Below are positions 1 to 30,581 of a DNA stretch of 36,849 nt, piece after piece. The position numbers were made by a program, and so were the translations under genes. The number at the start of each line of letters is the position of its first letter. The stretch's first letter is position 1. Source of the stretch: a virus (taxonomy: Duplodnaviria > Heunggongvirae > Uroviricota > Caudoviricetes); IMG/VR virus record IMGVR_UViG_2778261087_000007. One strand, written 5' to 3'. The notes under the pieces were generated by a model. It worked only from the letters and a program-made list of their open reading frames with translations, made no database searches and was not told the origin of the DNA.

Positions 1-1293
<1,293 letters not shown>

Positions 1294-1313
1294 TACCCAA
1301 TTTTTCTGAATCT

Positions 1314-1336
1314 AAAAAGCGCCTGCGGGCGCTTTA
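1314..1336 (+). terminator. putative intrinsic terminator downstream of serS
   Basis: A-run, GC stem gcgcc/ggcgc with 4-nt loop, then TTT, about 25 nt after the serS stop. Confidence 0.45.
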
Positions 1337-1478
1337 AGAAGAAGTTTAACAATTTGAAAATAAATGGATTTTATTTTTAAGTGTCCATATAACGTCCATC
1401 TTTGAATGCAAAAAGCTCACAGTTCCTATGCTGTGGGCTTTGTTTTTGGTATCTTCATGAATGAGAGTACCAAAAAGA

Positions 1479-1515
1479 AAACCCGCAGTTTTACGCTGCG
1501 GGTTTCTGCTTTTGG
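1479..1515 (+). terminator. hairpin with T-rich tail (terminator-like)
   Basis: 8-bp stem acccgcag/ctgcgggt, loop ttttacg, followed by tttctgctttt; A-run upstream so could act in both directions. Confidence 0.4.
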
Positions 1516-1956
1516 ATGTCTATAGGGTGCCTTATCGACCTTAACCCTGGCAACCGATTGACGGGGAATTTGACTTCCCCGTCGCGGTTCCTTACTGTGT
1601 AGACTTACACTGTAAGAATGCCGCAATTTCCGTGCCTGCAAACCTGAATCGCAACTCACAAGGTGATGTGTGGAGGATCCAGATTATCGCTACTGTGGTT
1701 AAACACAGCAGCAAGGTTTTTAACGGAATTTGCGTCATAGCGCTTGCTCCTTTGCTGGAGAGGCGCTAACCTTCTACTTGCGAAGGTAAGAAGTGTTAGG
1801 GCCTCGGTTAAACAGAAAATGTTTTCCGGGGCCTTTCCACATCCGGCCTTCGGGCTTACCCTCCGACCATCAGCCGAAAGGCACCCGCAGCGATTCTAGC
1901 CTGATCATCTCTTCTGTTTCAATTGAATAACCTTATCCAGTTGAACCTTTTCTGCC

Positions 1957-2474: not shown

Positions 2475-4214
2475 TCAGGCGATAAGGTCGCGGTATTTTT
2501 CCCGCAGGGAGGATGACTGTCTGGCATCACCGGTAAATTCACCACTGTTGGTGGGTGTGCCTGTGCCAGGATGTGCGTGTGTGGCAGCATGTGTTGCCAG
2601 TTGTTCAATGAGATCCAGAATATCAACGAACAACGTCATCAGGTTCAGGCTGTCGCCACCCTGTGAACCATTTCGGCCTATAAACAGGGTCGGCGCAGAG
2701 AGGGAAAGACCACCACTGGCGGTGGTGGTCTGTGTACCGCTGATGTTCTCTGTGATATTCCCGCTTACTGTGCTGTTAACATTACCGCCGATGGTTTCCT
2801 GCCTGTCAGCACTGATGCGGCGTATCTCTGCCTGTAATTCCGCAATAAGGCTGTTTGCTTTCATCCTGATATCACCGGTGGCCACAATACCGTAATCACC
2901 ATCAGAACCATGGACGATCTGCCCTGCCATCAGTGAACTCGTCCCGAGTACCGTGGTACTGTCTGTGGCCTGTACGGTTGTTGTGCGGGTTGTCGTCCGG
3001 CGGCTTTCCTGGTCGCTGGTTATGATTCTGTGTGCAGATTCTTCCCTGATTTTCTGGTCCGTTTCCCGGTGCCATGTGCCGTCACGGGTAACCCTCTGAA
3101 ATACTTCTGCACGCTGTTGCTGTAGCTGCTCGCCAGGCTGGATATCAGGAAGATTCAGTCCGGATGGGAGTATCTGCCTTATTACCGGTTTATCTGGCCG
3201 TCCTTCGATATGCGCGATTTCCACTATCGTTCCGGCTTCCGGATAAGAAAAACAACCGGCCTCATTTCCGGCCATGGGTACCGGAAGCGGCACGGCAGGA
3301 TATACAGGCGTGTTGTTGCTATCGTTGCCGTTTTCGTCCAGTAACTGCAGGTCAACAGCATAACGTGGGCGAAAACTGTCTGCCACATCGCCAAGCGTCG
3401 TGGATTCTGTTGGCGAGATAACGCGGGCCAGTCTTGGGCGTAATGTTCCGTCAGCCAGCTCCGGAAACTGCGATTCTGTCTGACGGCGCAGAGGTGAGCT
3501 GGATACGACAGAACCATCCTGGCGAAACCTGTCCCATGTCAGTGTCATGGTTTCATTATGAATGGCCACACGCGTGATCCGTCCTGCAGGAAGGTTAACG
3601 CCGGGGCGCAGAGTCTCTATCAACATGATATCCATACTGTTGCCGGCGCTGTGCCCCAGTGCATATTCATCAGGAATTTCCGGGATGGTCAGCGATGCAA
3701 AGCGTGAGTCACTGGCGCTGCCAACGAATACAGAACCATCCGGCATGGGATGCCAGACGTAATCCTGAATGCTGAATATCCTGCCAAGATGATCAAGCAG
3801 GCGGGTACCGCTTCCGCTGTGAGTGACGCAGGGTACTGGTGTGGATACATAGGCAGATGACGCGGTAATAAACACGATACCGCTCTTTTTTCCGAGATCA
3901 TCAAGAACATCACGCAGAGTCGGGTGCTGGATGACACACGGAAAACTGAAATCCAGTACCGCGGCAGCTTCCCTGATGAACAGACGGCGGGCGCCGTTTT
4001 CTGCCGGTTGATCGCGCTCAACGTAACCTGAGAAATAACGCCAGGCTTGGCCATCACGCCCAAAATCAATCTGAATCATGGCACCGGCCAGCGTGCTGCG
4101 CTGATTCGGCAGGGTGACAAAACCTCTTCCTGATGCGTTCAGTGACAGGACCAGACTGATGTCTGTTATTTCTGTCTGTTTACCGTTGACCATGCATCTC
4201 TGAATAATTTTCAT
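2475..4214 (-). CDS. baseplate hub / central spike-like protein (possible gpD-gpV type fusion)
   Basis: 579 aa; C-terminus LATHAATHAHPGTGTPTNSG resembles the His-rich apex of P2 gpV (..HTHKHPGDSGGTTG..); last gene of the tail operon; N-terminal similarity to hub proteins is only a pattern-level impression. Confidence 0.5.
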   Translation of the reverse strand: MKIIQRCMVNGKQTEITDISLVLSLNASGRGFVTLPNQRSTLAGAMIQIDFGRDGQAWRYFSGYVERDQPAENGARRLFIREAAAVLDFSFPCVIQHPTLRDVLDDLGKKSGIVFITASSAYVSTPVPCVTHSGSGTRLLDHLGRIFSIQDYVWHPMPDGSVFVGSASDSRFASLTIPEIPDEYALGHSAGNSMDIMLIETLRPGVNLPAGRITRVAIHNETMTLTWDRFRQDGSVVSSSPLRRQTESQFPELADGTLRPRLARVISPTESTTLGDVADSFRPRYAVDLQLLDENGNDSNNTPVYPAVPLPVPMAGNEAGCFSYPEAGTIVEIAHIEGRPDKPVIRQILPSGLNLPDIQPGEQLQQQRAEVFQRVTRDGTWHRETDQKIREESAHRIITSDQESRRTTTRTTTVQATDSTTVLGTSSLMAGQIVHGSDGDYGIVATGDIRMKANSLIAELQAEIRRISADRQETIGGNVNSTVSGNITENISGTQTTTASGGLSLSAPTLFIGRNGSQGGDSLNLMTLFVDILDLIEQLATHAATHAHPGTGTPTNSGEFTGDARQSSSLREKYRDLIA

Positions 4215-4786
4215 TATTCACCATCCTTCACGCTGCCAACACCTGTTTTATCCAGCCATCCTCCCAGCGTATTATTCACCGCTCCCCAGAATGCGTCCTG
4301 AGTATTGATTTGTTCGTTGTCAGACGTTGAACTGGTTCCTGTCTGTGTCTGCTGGTTAACCCTGGTTTTCTGTTCGCTGCTGCGGGCCTCTTTTTTCTCA
4401 GGTACGCTGAGTTTTTCCCTCAGGGTAAATGAGACCTGCCAGTTCATTTTCCCCTGTTGCTCCGTGACGTCGACACTGCCGGAGAAAACACCCTGTCGCA
4501 TATTCACCGCTCTGGCAGTAGCGTTGGCAATCCTGTAGCATTTTTTATCTCCTCCATTGCCTGTGGCTTCGGCCAGTTGAAAAAGGCGGGTCAGTATTTT
4601 TTCATCGTTGAAATCAACAATGCCCGTAACCTTCATTTCTTTCGCTTTGCAGCCTTTCTGGGCGCTGCTGGTACTGGTTGACTGACCTGACATATCCTTA
4701 TCCGGCAGGCGCAGACTGACGCTGACAGTGATATTGCGTAACAGGATCGCTTCTCCGTCCAGCGCCAGCACGATGATTTGTGTCAT
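4214..4786 (-). CDS. hypothetical tail-operon protein (possible baseplate or tube-initiator component)
   Basis: 190-aa ORF, ATG start; 1-nt overlap with the downstream spike gene and ATGA overlap with the upstream gene. Confidence 0.45.
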   Translation of the reverse strand: MTQIIVLALDGEAILLRNITVSVSLRLPDKDMSGQSTSTSSAQKGCKAKEMKVTGIVDFNDEKILTRLFQLAEATGNGGDKKCYRIANATARAVNMRQGVFSGSVDVTEQQGKMNWQVSFTLREKLSVPEKKEARSSEQKTRVNQQTQTGTSSTSDNEQINTQDAFWGAVNNTLGGWLDKTGVGSVKDGE

Positions 4787-5487
4787 TTCAGGGCACCTCT
4801 CAGCGCGGATAAATCCTCACCTGCAAAGAGCATAATAGTGGTCAGCACCCGGTCAGGGTGAGGAATGTTTTTTTTCATCATGATTGCGGCCTGCCTGGTA
4901 TCACCGGAAAAACAGAAACTCCATACCTGGCATGCCCTGTTTTGCGATTCCTGCTTTTCTCCGGTTAATCTGTCCATCAGGTTCTGGCGATCTTTTCTGA
5001 ACTGTGCCAGCGCCTGATCCAGCCCGGAAAAGGACAGCGGAGGAGGGGAAACGGCTGTGCTGATCAATTCAGTCTGTGCCAGACTCCTGGCTGTGCTGAG
5101 TGACAGGGTGGTGCTTTCCGGAAGTGTTGCCGCTACTTTTGCCGGGATCTGCATTTTGCTGACTGCCAGCGATAACTGGCTGGCGATCAGCCTGTTCATT
5201 CGCTTGATTTCCGGCAAAGGGAATACGTCGGCAAAACGTTTTGTCAGTGCAAGAAATTCTGAAGCTGAAGTGGCACTGAGCATCATTAGTACCATGTCGC
5301 AATCCCGGCTGCCCTCCAGTCTGTGCAGAATGGCATCAATGGCATTTTCCGGGCTGAGGTAAGCCCCTGAACGGGTGACGTTTCCCACACCTTCCGACCA
5401 TGGATGGAGACAAAGTTGTGAGCAGTTGATATTCATTGCAGCAGGCTTAAGAAGACTGCTTTTCCATTCCGCTGGCTGCATATTCAT
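4783..5487 (-). CDS. hypothetical protein, unknown function
   Basis: ORF 4783-5541 begins with TTG in the track; first in-frame ATGs at 5487, 5481 and 5436; no recognisable motif. Confidence 0.4.
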   Translation of the reverse strand: MNMQPAEWKSSLLKPAAMNINCSQLCLHPWSEGVGNVTRSGAYLSPENAIDAILHRLEGSRDCDMVLMMLSATSASEFLALTKRFADVFPLPEIKRMNRLIASQLSLAVSKMQIPAKVAATLPESTTLSLSTARSLAQTELISTAVSPPPLSFSGLDQALAQFRKDRQNLMDRLTGEKQESQNRACQVWSFCFSGDTRQAAIMMKKNIPHPDRVLTTIMLFAGEDLSALRGALK

Positions 5488-5643
5488 ACCATTTATTTCT
5501 GATGTGTTGTTGTTTTTTGATGTAATACACAAATTTAACAAAGTGTATGCAAGGCTGTTTAATATGCCATTCTGTAGTTATATGATCCCGGACGACCATA
5601 AGGGATACTGCACTGCAGTGTCTTCTCCCTTGGAAAACCTTTT

Positions 5644-5676
5644 CTGCCATACATTTGTATGGCAGGCTTTTTTTTT
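5644..5676. terminator. strong hairpin plus T9 run (plus-strand orientation) in minus-strand operon
   Basis: 9-bp stem ctgccatac/gtatggcag, 4-nt loop, then gc and 9 T; overlaps the stop of the DUF1353-like gene. Confidence 0.4.
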
Positions 5677-6059
5677 CAGCAACAGGTTCCCTGCTGCGTG
5701 TCGCTGTATTTCCCTTTCCCGAACAACCTTACCGCAAGATACATCAACCGTCTGCGCCAGCGTGGAACTCCCAGCACCGTCATCGCATCCAGAAATATCC
5801 TGTCCGCTTCCGCCTTCGTGCGCAGGGCATTGTCATACAGCCAGTCATGAATAATCGCGGCTTTCGCATAACGACCATGCGGCGGGAACAGTGCCCACAG
5901 AAGCCGGGGCACACTGGCAAGGTCCGTCACATATCCCTCCGGAACATAAATCACATCATCCGGGTTATCCGTCAGCCAGAATTCAAACGGCTCAACCAGC
6001 CGCCAGCGGTAATCATCCAGCATCTCCAGAATGGCCGGTGTGGTGAACTTACTCATCAT
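5676..6059 (-). CDS. DUF1353-like protein
   Basis: Motif YVTDLASVPRLLWALFPP...AAIIHDWLY recalls the DUF1353 family often found next to phage tail-fibre genes; start at MMSKF, overlaps the tfa stop. Confidence 0.5.
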   Translation of the reverse strand: MMSKFTTPAILEMLDDYRWRLVEPFEFWLTDNPDDVIYVPEGYVTDLASVPRLLWALFPPHGRYAKAAIIHDWLYDNALRTKAEADRIFLDAMTVLGVPRWRRRLMYLAVRLFGKGKYSDTQQGTCC

Positions 6060-6660
6060 CACCCTCTGGCCAGCCAACAGGATACGCACGAATATCCGGC
6101 AGTGCGGTCAGCCCTGCCACTTCTTCTTTCATCCGGCGCTGGCGTTCGTGGATTTTAAACCCCTGCATCACCATTGCCGCATTCATCGCAGTATCCAGTT
6201 GTATCAGCTCTTCCGGCGTCAGAGTGACATCCTGATTATCCGCATCCGTCCAGAAAAAATGCTCCGGCAACAGCCCGTTTCCTGCCACCGCAACAACAGG
6301 TGTCAGTCTGGACTGTGACGCCTTTCCGGCATCCCAGCGATGACCACTGAATTCAAAAACAAAACTGCTGTTCTCCTGGCTGTCACGCCAGCGACTGATT
6401 TCACCGTATTTCTGATTTCTGGCCTTTTCCAGTATCTCCTCTGTCACCACAAACGGCGTGACTCCACCCCAGGCCCCTGATATCAGTCCTGACCAGAGCC
6501 TTAACCCGAATTCTGTCGGGTCTGAAGCTCTGGCAGTATAAGGTACATATACCCGATGACTGTCATCAGAACGGTCTGCCATGAACACCTCACAGGTAAT
6601 GCTGCCATCTTCATTAAAACGGGCATTGCGGACGTCCGCTTCTGAATTCCTGGTATCCAT
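6049..6660 (-). CDS. tail fibre assembly chaperone (second copy)
   Basis: 203 aa immediately after tail fibre 2; C-terminal region typical of Tfa chaperones. Confidence 0.7.
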   Translation of the reverse strand: MDTRNSEADVRNARFNEDGSITCEVFMADRSDDSHRVYVPYTARASDPTEFGLRLWSGLISGAWGGVTPFVVTEEILEKARNQKYGEISRWRDSQENSSFVFEFSGHRWDAGKASQSRLTPVVAVAGNGLLPEHFFWTDADNQDVTLTPEELIQLDTAMNAAMVMQGFKIHERQRRMKEEVAGLTALPDIRAYPVGWPEGDDE

Positions 6661-8228
6661 TATTTCACCCTCAGAAAAAGCATTTTCTCTTCAGCTTCTG
6701 CATTTCCGCAGGCCATCCAGATTCCTGACTGTACCGGGTCAAGCCGCTCTCCGGCCAGTTCATCTCCGTAACTGACCGCATCCTGAGAAGCACAGAACAG
6801 GTAACTCCCCACTCCACCGGCTACCGGACGACCGGCGAACTGCCACCATGGAGTGGTACCCAGTCCGCTGTAAGCCCTGATGAATGCCTGTCCCATACAG
6901 TTAAGGAAAATCTGACCTGAAACATTCTCATTCGTCGGCACCTGCCACATCAGACCATATGCATAATTCCCCGCGGCACCCGGAACGGGGTGGTCTTCAC
7001 AGGCAAGGTAGTGGTTATATTTCAGCAACGGGAACTGAAGGTCAGAATACATAAAACCATGAGCCAGAATGCCCGTGAATTTTTTCGCAGTCTTTATCCC
7101 GTCTTCCGGGTAAACTCCGCTGGGCCCCATGGGTCCCTGAGGCCCCTGAGGGCCGGTGGCTCCCCGGGCACCGGTATCACCTTTATCGCCTTTCTCACCT
7201 TTTTCTCCCTGAGGCCCGGTATCGCCCCGGTCCCCTTTCTCTCCCTTTTCACCACGGGGGCCCTGTGGGCCGGTCTCCCCCTGCGGTCCCGGCTCTCCCT
7301 GTGGTCCTGGCGTTTTAGCAATCTCCCTGGCCTCCTCCAGTGCCTTCAGCGCCCCCTGCTCATGTTCACCTGCTGTCGTGGCACTGTCTGTTGCCTGGTT
7401 CGCTGACTGGCGTGTTTGTTCCACGGCCTCCTGATATGAGCATGTGGTTATCCTCAAATCTTCCCATACACCGCTTTCTGTTCTGTGAGCTAACGGTGCA
7501 ATATGACTGTGTTCATCGCATTCCGGAATGCTTTCGGCCAGGATCAGGCGATATCGGGTGACGGGGTACCCCAGGACTGTGAAACCATCCACCCATGCCC
7601 GGATACAAAGATAATCAGCACCTTCAGCAATAATGAGGGTTTCATCTTCAGTCTTTACCCTGAAGCCGGCAATATAGGCGGTGCCACCGGTACAGGTCAT
7701 CACATCATCCTTAACGGTGATGCGTCCACAGTCATTAATAAAAACGTGATGTCCGTAAAAATCGTGCAGTGTTTCGGCTCTTGTACTGGCTTCAGCTTTC
7801 AGCCATGAAGTGATATCCAGTTGCCAGCTCTGAGGGGGAACAGTAATATTCGCAGCCCTGGCCATTCCCTTATAAGCCAGGACAAAATTGCGTATTAATG
7901 TTTCGCCCTCCAGTTTTTGCCTTACCGGGGTGGTGATAATACCGCACAGTGTTCTGCCTGGCTGATGTACAAGACAAATACGGTTATATGTAAACTCCCT
8001 GACATCATGACCAATTGTCACGCTGCAGATAATGGCATCCTGATTGAGACGGCTGTATGTCAGCTCTGTGGCAGCAAATGTTATCTGTGAGTCTTCCGGA
8101 TAACTATCCGTCAGCATTGACTCGTTGTCTGATAAAGTAAAAAGAATGGCATCCGGTCTTGCCGGAATATTATCTGCAACGCAGTCAGCCATCCATTTTT
8201 CAAATGATTTGGTCAGCAGGGTGCTCAT
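6660..8228 (-). CDS. tail fibre protein 2 with collagen-like Gly-X-Y tract
   Basis: 522 aa; N-terminal 200 aa homologous to tail fibre 1 ([12 protein letters not shown]...PARPD vs MSTVITRQYEHW...PARPD); about 21 uninterrupted G-X-Y triplets. Confidence 0.8.
7116..7310 (-). repeat. collagen-like G-X-Y coding repeat inside tail fibre 2
   Basis: Residues about 307-371: [64 protein letters not shown]. Confidence 0.85.
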
Positions 8229-30293: not shown

Positions 30294-30470
30294 GGTGTGG
30301 CCTCGTATGTAGTAAGTTTTAAAAACTCACCATCCAGAGCTGCGAAACTGTGGGTGGCGAGACGTACGAGGTTCGCAGTACCGGCTACATACGATCCCGG
30401 CCCGACCGAAGTCGGCCCCGTACGCCCCGCCATAATTCTGATGCGAAAAAGACGTGGCAATGCAGTACGC

Positions 30471-30493
30471 ACAAAAAAACCGCTGGCGCGGTT
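30471..30493 (-). terminator. intrinsic terminator downstream of dam
   Basis: On the minus strand: stem accgc/gcggt with 4-nt loop followed by 7 T. Confidence 0.6.
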
Positions 30494-30581
30494 GTGCGCG
30501 TATGTAGTCAGCAGGCTGCGAAACCCGGCACCCGTTTTATAAGGTGCAGCGGGAATGTAACCCGACTGATTACGGCATGGC

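What the first reader, a model, noticed from the sequence alone, without database searches (positions are those of the whole stretch)
4214..6089. Three unannotatable genes between the tail-fibre block and the spike gene
A DUF1353-like protein and two proteins of 190 and about 235 aa with no recognisable motifs sit in the tail operon. They may be essential baseplate parts, but the position downstream of tail-fibre assembly genes is a known accessory-gene hotspot in P2-like phages. A 134-bp spacer with a strong hairpin (5644-5676) separates the DUF1353-like gene from the others, hinting at a module boundary.
Basis: inference. Interest (0 to 1): 0.55.

Follow-up and report, generated by a model that had tools for sequence, protein, structure and literature searches.

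The report
Core baseplate genes plus mobile phospholipase
Two of the three "unannotatable" genes are conserved baseplate-module genes of an HP1-like prophage, one of them the protein that starts the tail tube, and the third is a predicted phospholipase A2 that arrived with a swappable tail-fibre cassette, so the region is largely ordinary.

Summary
The three ORFs exist on the minus strand. They are DUF1353 (5676-6056, 126 aa), an HP1 orf33 homologue (4783-5487, 234 aa) and an HP1 orf34 homologue (4214-4786, 190 aa). They are not unannotatable. The 190-aa protein hits Pfam HP1_ORF34 "baseplate complex protein" (E 2e-57), and its model has a tail-tube fold closest to tube initiators and "ripcord" proteins. 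The 234-aa protein belongs to PHROG 1677. orf33-orf34-orf35 sit in the same order after the fibre genes in six Peduoviridae genera and in 50 of 50 related prophages. orf33 has no detectable structural relative, so its exact role is open. DUF1353 belongs to the TtaP phospholipase A2 family, and H70/D71/D85 are conserved. It is absent from all 50 relatives. It is part of a fibre-tip/DUF4376/DUF1353 cassette shared at about 96% DNA identity with E. coli lambdoid prophages, so the module boundary is real. The hairpin is a canonical terminator only on the opposite strand. A conserved promoter-like site lies upstream of it, which suggests an unconfirmed small RNA of about 85 nt. No match to known defence-system models was found.

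The parts
2475..4214 (-). HP1 orf35-like central hub/spike protein (579 aa); last gene of the tail operon
   Evidence: PHROG 2258 'baseplate protein', E 6e-213 over the full length. Weak Phage_base_V OB-fold and Gp5_trimer_C hits. A family profile matches the T4 gp5 beta-helix (E 1.7e-5) and the VgrG OB region (E 3e-3). The N-terminal ~290 aa being gp27/gpD-like is inferred only; there is no sequence similarity to P2 gpD or gpV.
4214..4786 (-). HP1 orf34-like baseplate protein (190 aa), predicted tail-tube initiator; its stop overlaps the orf35 start (TAATG)
4783..5487 (-). HP1 orf33-like protein (234 aa; alternative start 5481); its stop overlaps the orf34 start (ATGA); conserved partner gene of orf34, fold without a known relative
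5488..5675 (.). Non-coding spacer brought in with the cassette; its right part (5513-5675) is shared with an E. coli lambdoid prophage
   Evidence: blastn boundaries. Only 64% identical to the otherwise ~91% identical E. coli twin prophage. Alignment A6.
5643..5676 (+). Hairpin plus T9: intrinsic terminator in plus-strand orientation
   Evidence: Terminator scan. Hairpin and T-run are kept in every context aligned. On the minus strand the stem is followed by AAAAGGTTTT.
5559..5586 (+). Sigma-70-like promoter (TTAATA-16-TATGAT) facing the terminator
   Evidence: The same position reads TTGATG-16-TATAAT in L007, TTGATA-16-TATAAT in L061 and TTGATG-17-TATACT in L066/L067 (read from alignment A6).
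5592..5676 (+). Candidate small RNA of about 85 nt (unconfirmed) with a conserved CU-rich stretch UCUUCUCCCUUGG at 5627-5639
   Evidence: No Rfam family above threshold. Consensus folding supports only the terminator hairpin.
5676..6056 (-). DUF1353 protein (126 aa), predicted TtaP-type phospholipase A2; accessory cargo
   Evidence: PF07087, E 2e-33. H70/D71/D85 match the TtaP catalytic residues in number and spacing (PMC11525133). These residues are invariant in five distant phage homologues. The protein is 100% identical in lambdoid prophage L007 and in loci L062, L068, L069 and L074. Absent from 50 relatives.
6049..6660 (-). DUF4376 protein (203 aa), cassette partner of the second fibre
   Evidence: PF14301, E 3e-19. 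PHROG 1141 'tail fiber protein'. Paired with DUF1353 in E. coli prophages and plasmids.
6660..8228 (-). Second, collagen-repeat tail fibre (522 aa); the part encoding its C-terminus (6660-7398) belongs to the exchanged cassette
   Evidence: Collagen and Phage_tail_fib hits. Window 7398-5513 is 96.4% identical to lambdoid prophage L007.

Best explanation
The window holds an HP1-like (Peduoviridae) prophage next to serS. Its tail operon runs on the minus strand: TMP, gpW-like (DUF2590), gpJ, gpI, fibre 1, Tfa, [fibre 2, DUF4376, DUF1353], orf33, orf34, orf35. The last three genes are the conserved end of this operon, and I read them as its central-baseplate module. orf35 is the central spike, probably fused to the hub. 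orf34 is a second tube-fold protein. It most likely forms the ring between the hub and the first tube hexamer that starts tube polymerisation, with the same job as pyocin PA0626, Mu gpN, Pam3 gp17 and XM1 gp11. orf33 is a lineage-specific partner whose stop overlaps the orf34 start. I infer that it is a baseplate-internal stabiliser or an assembly factor bound by the tube initiator's disordered loop and tail, as XM1 gp12 is held by gp11. The bracketed block is an insertion. It is a host-range cassette (fibre tip plus DUF4376) carrying DUF1353, a small TtaP-family phospholipase A2, and it is exchanged almost unchanged with lambdoid siphophage prophages. The hairpin marks the cassette's end. On the gene strand it lacks a U-tract, so late transcription can read through into orf33-35. 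Shown here: family memberships, synteny, fold similarity, catalytic residues and cassette boundaries. Inferred: stoichiometry and position in the virion, the role of orf33, the enzymatic activity and biological role of the phospholipase, and read-through.
For: Families. Gene order in six reference phages. In 50 species, orf33 lies directly upstream of orf34 in 50 of 50 loci, and the order TMP-W-J-I-fibre-orf33-34-orf35 holds wherever the contig reaches that far. Overlapping stop/start codons at 4783-4786 and 4214. The rest of the tail module has sheath (DUF2586), tube (HP1_Orf24), TAC, TMP, and gpW/J/I-like genes, with no Pfam match to P2 gpU, gpD, gpV or gpX families among the ORFs scanned, so hub, spike and tube initiator must come from orf33-35. 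orf34 fold. Role of the tube-fold ring and its globular partner in XM1: PMC10457771. orf35 spike similarity. DUF1353 as PLA2: PMC11525133, residues. Cassette. No PADLOC hit.
Confidence: 0.82

Rival explanations
1. All three genes are accessory cargo (morons, lysogenic-conversion or anti-phage genes) sitting in the post-fibre hotspot, as with the P2 Z/fun locus.
For: P2 carries the non-essential fun(Z) gene after G. The genes lie after the fibre-assembly genes. Two of the three have no characterised function.
Against: orf33 and orf34 are present, adjacent and in the same place in 50 of 50 relatives and six phage genera. orf34 is a tube-fold baseplate family. Their stops overlap the next gene's start, ending in the spike gene. 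No PADLOC hit. GC content shows no break.
Confidence: 0.03
2. orf33 is not a virion component. It is a non-structural assembly chaperone for the hub or tube initiator, comparable to the T4 hub-assembly catalysts, and is discarded after baseplate assembly.
For: No match to any protein in the solved baseplate structures of the PDB library. It is a stand-alone, single-domain family. The minimal set of Mu-type baseplate parts is complete without it.
Against: The orf33 homologue in Yersinia phage vB_YenM_324 is deposited as 'structural protein' (annotation only). XM1 shows that lineage-specific globular proteins can be true baseplate parts. A conserved, predicted-disordered central segment (KMQxPA...LS..TAR) looks like a segment that binds a partner.
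Confidence: 0.3
3. DUF1353 is a tail-fibre assembly chaperone, as many phage records and PHROG 1158 label it, needed to fold the second fibre. It is not an enzyme.
For: PHROG 1158 'tail assembly chaperone'. Many GenBank labels say the same. It is always co-inherited with this fibre tip and DUF4376.
Against: The labels appear to be positional. The family founder TtaP has measured PLA2 activity that is abolished by D85A. H70/D71/D85 are invariant in distant phage homologues. Homologues also occur with no fibre gene nearby, at the end of the Sf11 lysis cassette and beside terminase in 201phi2-1. DUF4376 already occupies the chaperone position.
Confidence: 0.12
4. The hairpin is simply the rho-independent terminator of the incoming cassette's operon. 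It is a remnant with no plus-strand transcript, and orf33-35 are expressed from a new promoter in the spacer.
For: In lambdoid prophages DUF1353 is the last late gene and the hairpin follows its stop codon. Consensus folding supports nothing beyond the hairpin.
Against: The T-run lies on the wrong side for minus-strand termination. A promoter-like -35/-10 pair is kept at the same distance upstream on the plus strand in four sequence-divergent versions, including island remnants that have lost DUF1353. The scan found no minus-strand promoter in the spacer.
Confidence: 0.35

Closest known systems
Haemophilus phage HP1 orf33-orf34-orf35 (Hpunavirus), with the same trio in K139 (orf37-39), phiO18P (gp44-46), ESSI-2 (gp05, gp03, gp01) and vB_YenM_324 (gp033-035)
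   Same: Same three families, same order, same place at the end of the tail operon after the fibre and Tfa genes, with overlapping stops and starts.
   Different: The window has a 3.2-kb insertion (second fibre, DUF4376, DUF1353, spacer) between Tfa and orf33. Identity to HP1 is only about 26% for orf33 and 50% for the orf34 core.
Tube initiator / 'ripcord' proteins of contractile tails: Pam3 gp17, Pa193 gp38/gp39, pyocin R2 PA0626, Mu gpN (gp43), XM1 gp11
   Different: No sequence or profile similarity. It is shorter than Mu gpN and lacks a LysM or other added domain. It has a low-complexity, disordered C-terminal tail of about 60 residues. Its position in the particle has not been observed.
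TtaP (Salmonella Typhi typhoid-toxin islet), founder of the DUF1353 phospholipase A2 class
   Same: Same Pfam domain and nearly the same length (126 vs 125 aa). The catalytic His70/Asp71/Asp85 are at identical positions.
   Different: Here the gene is encoded in a prophage tail-fibre cassette, not beside cdtB. Activity was not measured. The TtaP sequence itself was not aligned here, only the residue numbers reported in the paper.
E. coli lambdoid prophage side-fibre cassette (prophage tail fibre, DUF4376, DUF1353) downstream of gpJ
   Same: 96% DNA identity over window 5513-7398. The DUF1353 protein is identical. The same hairpin follows the stop codon.
   Different: There it ends the late operon of a siphophage. 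Here it is embedded in a myophage operon, upstream of three genes inferred to be essential.
P2 post-fibre accessory locus (Z/fun after gene G)
   Same: Variable cargo sits directly after the fibre-assembly gene.
   Different: P2 has a terminator after G and the cargo gene is on the opposite strand. Here the cargo is co-oriented and followed by core genes. Only DUF1353 and the second-fibre block behave as variable.

Membership tests
Pfam PF25759 HP1_ORF34 baseplate complex protein (190-aa gene) | Full-length HMM match above the gathering score | tested here: met
   194 bits against a cut-off of 27, residues 2-177 on profile positions 2-178 of 180. All 113 homologues listed carry PF25759.
Pfam PF25759 HP1_ORF34 baseplate complex protein (190-aa gene) | Position between the orf33-like and orf35-like genes at the end of the tail operon | tested here: met
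HP1 orf33 family / PHROG 1677 (234-aa gene) | Profile match and homology to HP1 orf33 over nearly the full length | tested here: met
   PHROG 1677, E 1.7e-41. tblastn to HP1 orf33, 95% coverage, E 3e-14. Invariant YLSPxNA and PLPE motifs.
Tube initiator / ripcord class (functional class, orf34) | Tail-tube fold in a protein distinct from the major tube protein | tested here: met
Tube initiator / ripcord class (functional class, orf34) | Forms the ring between hub and first tube hexamer in the particle | not testable with these tools
   Needs cryo-EM or cross-linking. No multimer prediction tool was available.
Tube initiator / ripcord class (functional class, orf34) | Sequence homology to P2 gpU, Mu gp43 or PA0626 | tested here: not met
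   hhalign probability <1% against Mu gp43 and P2 gpU. No PDB hit with the family profile. It works like these proteins by fold, but it is not filed as a member of their sequence families.
DUF1353 / TtaP-type phospholipase A2 | PF07087 match above the gathering score | tested here: met
   114 bits against a cut-off of 22.5, profile positions 1-91 of 91.
DUF1353 / TtaP-type phospholipase A2 | Catalytic His/Asp dyad plus the adjacent Asp (H70, D71, D85 in TtaP) | tested here: met
   Same residues at the same numbers counted from M12. Invariant in five distant homologues. Residue roles are taken from PMC11525133.
DUF1353 / TtaP-type phospholipase A2 | sn-2 phospholipid hydrolysis | not testable with these tools
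   Requires an enzyme assay.
Accessory-gene hotspot cargo (variable among relatives, flanks conserved) | Gene absent or replaced in close relatives while neighbours stay | tested here: not met
   This row is for orf33 and orf34: present in 50 of 50 loci.
Accessory-gene hotspot cargo (variable among relatives, flanks conserved) | Gene absent or replaced in close relatives while neighbours stay (DUF1353) | tested here: met
   0 of 50 relatives have DUF1353 or DUF4376 within 9 kb. It is present only in the near-twin E. coli prophage L061. The cassette is 95-98% identical to that twin against 88-94% for the backbone.
Known anti-phage defence systems (PADLOC-DB) | Match to any defence-system protein model | tested here: not met
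   No hit for any of the five proteins at E <= 0.01.
Intrinsic terminator of the tail-gene (minus) strand | GC-rich stem followed by a U-tract on the transcribed strand | tested here: not met
   The scan reports it only on the plus strand. The minus-strand tail is AAAAGGUUUU.
Curated small-RNA families (Rfam 15) | Covariance-model match at the gathering score in 5300-5900 | tested here: not met
   Best hit is suhB/mmgR at 28.4 bits against a gathering score of 41, mostly the terminator.

The most novel reading that the evidence does not exclude
Two things are not excluded. First, orf33 may be a baseplate component of HP1-like myophages with a fold that matched nothing in the solved-structure and BFVD viral-model libraries searched. 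It could be held by the tube initiator and would be a new accessory element of the minimal contractile baseplate. Second, the fibre cassette may carry two further functions: a virion- or lysis-associated phospholipase A2 acting on the host outer membrane, and a convergent small RNA of about 85 nt with a CU-rich (anti-Shine-Dalgarno-like) seed. That RNA would be antisense to the read-through late mRNA and could tune expression of orf33-35.
Probability: 0.2. Interest if true: 0.55.

Novelty: new member of a known kind. Interest (0 to 1): 0.27.

Why it matters
The finding mainly corrects an annotation. Two "hypothetical" genes at the end of HP1-like tail operons can be labelled: orf34 as the tube initiator and orf33 as its conserved partner. 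They should not be mistaken for cargo or defence genes when prophages are mined for accessory loci. The region also shows that a fibre-tip cassette with a TtaP-type phospholipase moves nearly unchanged between siphophage and myophage prophages of enterobacteria. This gives a natural setting in which to ask what DUF1353 phospholipases do for phages, a question the TtaP study left open. orf33 remains a widespread, strictly conserved tail gene with no structural relative, which makes it a reasonable target for cryo-EM of an HP1-like baseplate.

Tried and rejected
- PDB sequence searches with the single proteins and with family profiles found nothing meaningful for orf33, orf34 or DUF1353.
- hhalign of the orf33, orf34 and orf35 family alignments against Mu gp43 and P2 gpU, gpD and gpV showed no similarity. 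The idea that orf33 plus orf34 is a split Mu gpN is therefore unsupported.
- PADLOC and NCBIfam gave nothing for the three genes.
- Literature searches for HP1 orf33/34/35, K139 orf37-39 and vB_YenM_324 found no virion proteomics or genetics.
- Exact-sequence literature searches for the candidate RNA found nothing relevant.
A narrower orf34 alignment worked.
- Pattern scans for the terminator found one further copy in IMG/VR and five related copies among eight metagenome hits. The other three hits were unrelated hairpins. That is too little diversity to test covariation; consensus folding supports only the terminator stem.
- The weak Pfam hit of orf33 to the CDI cyclin-kinase-inhibitor family (E 0.05) and the PDB hits of DUF1353 to succinate dehydrogenase subunit D (E 0.06) were dismissed as chance.

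Full report
**What is there**

The window starts with serS (1-1293, plus strand), followed by a prophage whose tail genes run on the minus strand. The finding's coordinates contain three minus-strand ORFs: 5676-6089, 4783-5541 and 4214-4786.

Homologues and gene calls in near-identical loci favour shorter versions of the first two.
- DUF1353 most likely starts at ATG 6056. That gives 126 aa and an 8-nt overlap with the stop of the preceding DUF4376 gene, as annotated in E. coli.
- The middle gene most likely starts at ATG 5487 or 5481, giving 234 or 232 aa.
- The stop of the middle gene overlaps the start of the 190-aa gene (ATGA at 4783-4786). The stop of the 190-aa gene overlaps the start of the 579-aa gene (TAATG at 4214).

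**The genes are not unannotatable**

- The 190-aa protein matches Pfam PF25759, "Bacteriophage HP1 ORF34 baseplate complex protein", at E 2.4e-57. It also matches PHROG 1398.
- The 234-aa protein has no Pfam or NCBIfam hit. It matches PHROG 1677 at E 1.7e-41 and is homologous to HP1/HP2 orf33 over 95% of its length.
- The 126-aa protein is a full-length DUF1353 domain (E 2e-33).
- The 579-aa neighbour is PHROG 2258 "baseplate protein" (E 6e-213). It has weak OB-fold and gp5 beta-helix hits. A family profile matches the T4 gp5 beta-helix (E 1.7e-5) and VgrG (E 3e-3).
- None of the proteins matches a PADLOC defence model.

**Type of phage**

The other tail ORFs are HP1-type: sheath (DUF2586), tube (HP1_Orf24), an M15 endolysin, a tail assembly chaperone, the tape measure protein (TMP), a gpW-like DUF2590 protein, gpJ and gpI. 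Among the ORFs scanned, none matches the Pfam families of P2 gpU, gpD, gpV or gpX. The hub, spike and tube-initiator functions must therefore come from the last three genes.

**Synteny**

Six reference phages from six Peduoviridae genera have the same order: HP1, ESSI-2, vB_YenM_324, K139, phiO18P and phi3. The order is TMP, W, J, I, fibre, fibre-assembly, orf33-like, orf34-like, orf35-like. In phi3 the orf33 slot is an unannotated gap.

A scan of one genome per species returned 50 loci from 50 species, including Escherichia albertii, Edwardsiella, Yersinia, Erwinia, Serratia, Xenorhabdus and Rheinheimera.
- An orf33 profile hits the frame directly upstream of orf34 in 50 of 50 loci. One copy is cut by a contig end and one (L058) looks degraded.
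- The overall gene order is the same wherever the contig extends far enough.

**What orf34 does**

The major tube protein is encoded elsewhere in the window, so orf34 is a second tube-fold protein beside the spike gene. That is what a tube initiator looks like. In XM1 the equivalent gp11 hexamer sits between tube and hub, contacts seven other proteins and starts tube polymerisation (PMC10457771).

The similarity is at fold level only. Family profiles show no similarity to Mu gp43, P2 gpU or any PDB sequence.

**What orf33 does**

Three observations point to a tail-morphogenesis role tied to orf34:
- strict adjacency to orf34, with overlapping stop and start codons;
- a conserved but predicted-disordered central segment;
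- late-operon position.

My preferred reading is a baseplate-internal partner held by the flexible loop and tail of orf34, as the lineage-specific gp12 is held by gp11 in XM1. A non-structural assembly chaperone is a live alternative. The only hint of virion presence is the deposited label "structural protein" on the vB_YenM_324 homologue. I found no proteomics or genetics.

**DUF1353**

The family founder, TtaP of Salmonella Typhi, is an experimentally shown phospholipase A2. Its catalytic residues are H70, D71 and D85, and a D85A mutation abolishes activity (PMC11525133). Counted from M12, the window protein has H70, D71 and D85. These residues are invariant in distant homologues from Salmonella phage Arash, a Helicobacter phage, Shigella phage Sf11 and Pseudomonas phage 201phi2-1.

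Homologues occur in 289 phage records, often labelled "tail assembly chaperone". Their contexts vary:
- last gene of the lysis cassette in Sf11;
- after fibre genes in a Helicobacter phage;
- beside terminase in 201phi2-1.

The chaperone label therefore looks positional. What the enzyme does for a phage is unknown. TtaP itself gave no envelope phenotype.

**The cassette and the module boundary**

None of the 50 relatives has DUF1353 or DUF4376. In them orf33 follows the fibre and fibre-assembly genes directly.

The window carries an insertion made of a second, collagen-repeat fibre, DUF4376, DUF1353 and a spacer.
- Window 7398-5513 is 96.4% identical to an E. coli lambdoid prophage. There the same three genes follow gpJ and end the late operon.
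- The DUF1353 protein is 100% identical in the window, in that lambdoid prophage and in loci L062, L068, L069 and L074. L062 is the window's own metagenome twin and the others are metagenome or viral contigs.
- An E. coli twin of the whole prophage, at another chromosomal site, has the same gene order. Against that twin the backbone is 88-94% identical, the cassette 95-98% and the spacer only 64%.

It separates a mobile host-range cassette from the core genes.

**The hairpin**

The hairpin is a canonical intrinsic terminator on the plus strand only: stem at 5643-5666, then T9. On the gene strand the stem is followed by AAAAGGTTTT. This fits the need for late transcription to read through into orf33-35.

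A sigma-70-like promoter faces the terminator at 5559-5586. In alignment A6 three elements are kept:
- the -35/-10 pair;
- a CU-rich stretch (UCUUCUCCCUUGG);
- the hairpin with its T-run.

They are kept in the window, its metagenome twin, one lambdoid prophage (L007), the divergent spacer of the E. coli twin, and remnants in a degraded E. coli island that has lost DUF1353. A second lambdoid version (L008) keeps only a related CU-rich stretch and the terminator.

This suggests a plus-strand RNA of about 85 nt. The predicted fold is -30.8 kcal/mol, z = -5.6. It matches no Rfam family at threshold. There are too few variants to test covariation, and consensus folding supports only the terminator stem. 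I treat it as an unconfirmed side observation.

**Verdict**

Two of the three genes are ordinary, conserved tail-operon genes of an HP1-like phage, and one now has a plausible specific role. The third is a predicted phospholipase riding on a mobile fibre cassette. These are new members of known kinds. The open points are the unknown fold and role of orf33, the phage function of DUF1353 phospholipases, and the candidate small RNA.

Noticed in passing
window 5559-5676 (+): Promoter-like site, CU-rich stretch (UCUUCUCCCUUGG, 5627-5639) and plus-strand terminator. They are conserved together downstream of DUF1353 in an E. coli lambdoid prophage (L007) and an HP1-like twin (L061), and in E. coli island remnants (L066, L067). 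This is a candidate small RNA of about 85 nt, antisense to the tail operon, with no Rfam family match.
   Followed up: partly
window 5519-5545 (+): A conserved block, TTTGATGTAATACACAAATTTAAC, with partial dyad symmetry lies about 35 nt upstream of the promoter-like site. It is kept in the window, L007, L061, L066 and L067 (alignment A6). It could be a protein-binding site.
   Followed up: no
window 1592-1738 (-): A 48-aa ORF (MTQIPLKTLLLCLTTVAIIWILHTSPCELRFRFAGTEIAAFLQCKSTQ) looks like a Hok/Gef-type membrane toxin. The matching region of the E. coli twin prophage (L061 13873-14013) is called PF01848 HOK_GEF, with a YafO toxin gene beside it. The ORF itself was not scanned against Pfam.
   Followed up: partly
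window 30350-30437 (-) and 30473-30547 (-): Rfam hits above gathering score to C4 antisense RNA (79.8 bits) and isrK Hfq-binding RNA (62.8 bits) lie side by side in the early region of the prophage. This resembles a P1/P7-type immunity RNA module in an HP1-like prophage.
   Followed up: no
window 1-1923 vs L011 11915-13834: The closest species-level relative, a prophage in Escherichia albertii, also sits next to serS. The flank is 89% identical while the prophage itself is only about 70% identical. The serS-proximal site seems to be a recurrent integration site for this phage group. The E. coli twin (L061) sits elsewhere, near prpR/prpB.
   Followed up: partly
L079 2998-3339 (Shigella phage Sf11 gp53): A DUF1353 homologue is the last gene of a lysis cassette: lysozyme-like gene, lysozyme, holin, DUF2514, DUF1353. 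This hints that some phage DUF1353 phospholipases act in lysis rather than in tail assembly.
   Followed up: no
L006 6457-7371 (Pseudomonas phage phi3): There is an unannotated ~0.9-kb gap exactly where the orf33-like gene should be, between the fibre-assembly gene and the orf34 homologue. The orf34 homologue is labelled 'nucleoid DNA-binding protein' there and 'adenine glycosylase' in several Vibrio and Yersinia phage records. These are probably propagated misannotations.
   Followed up: no
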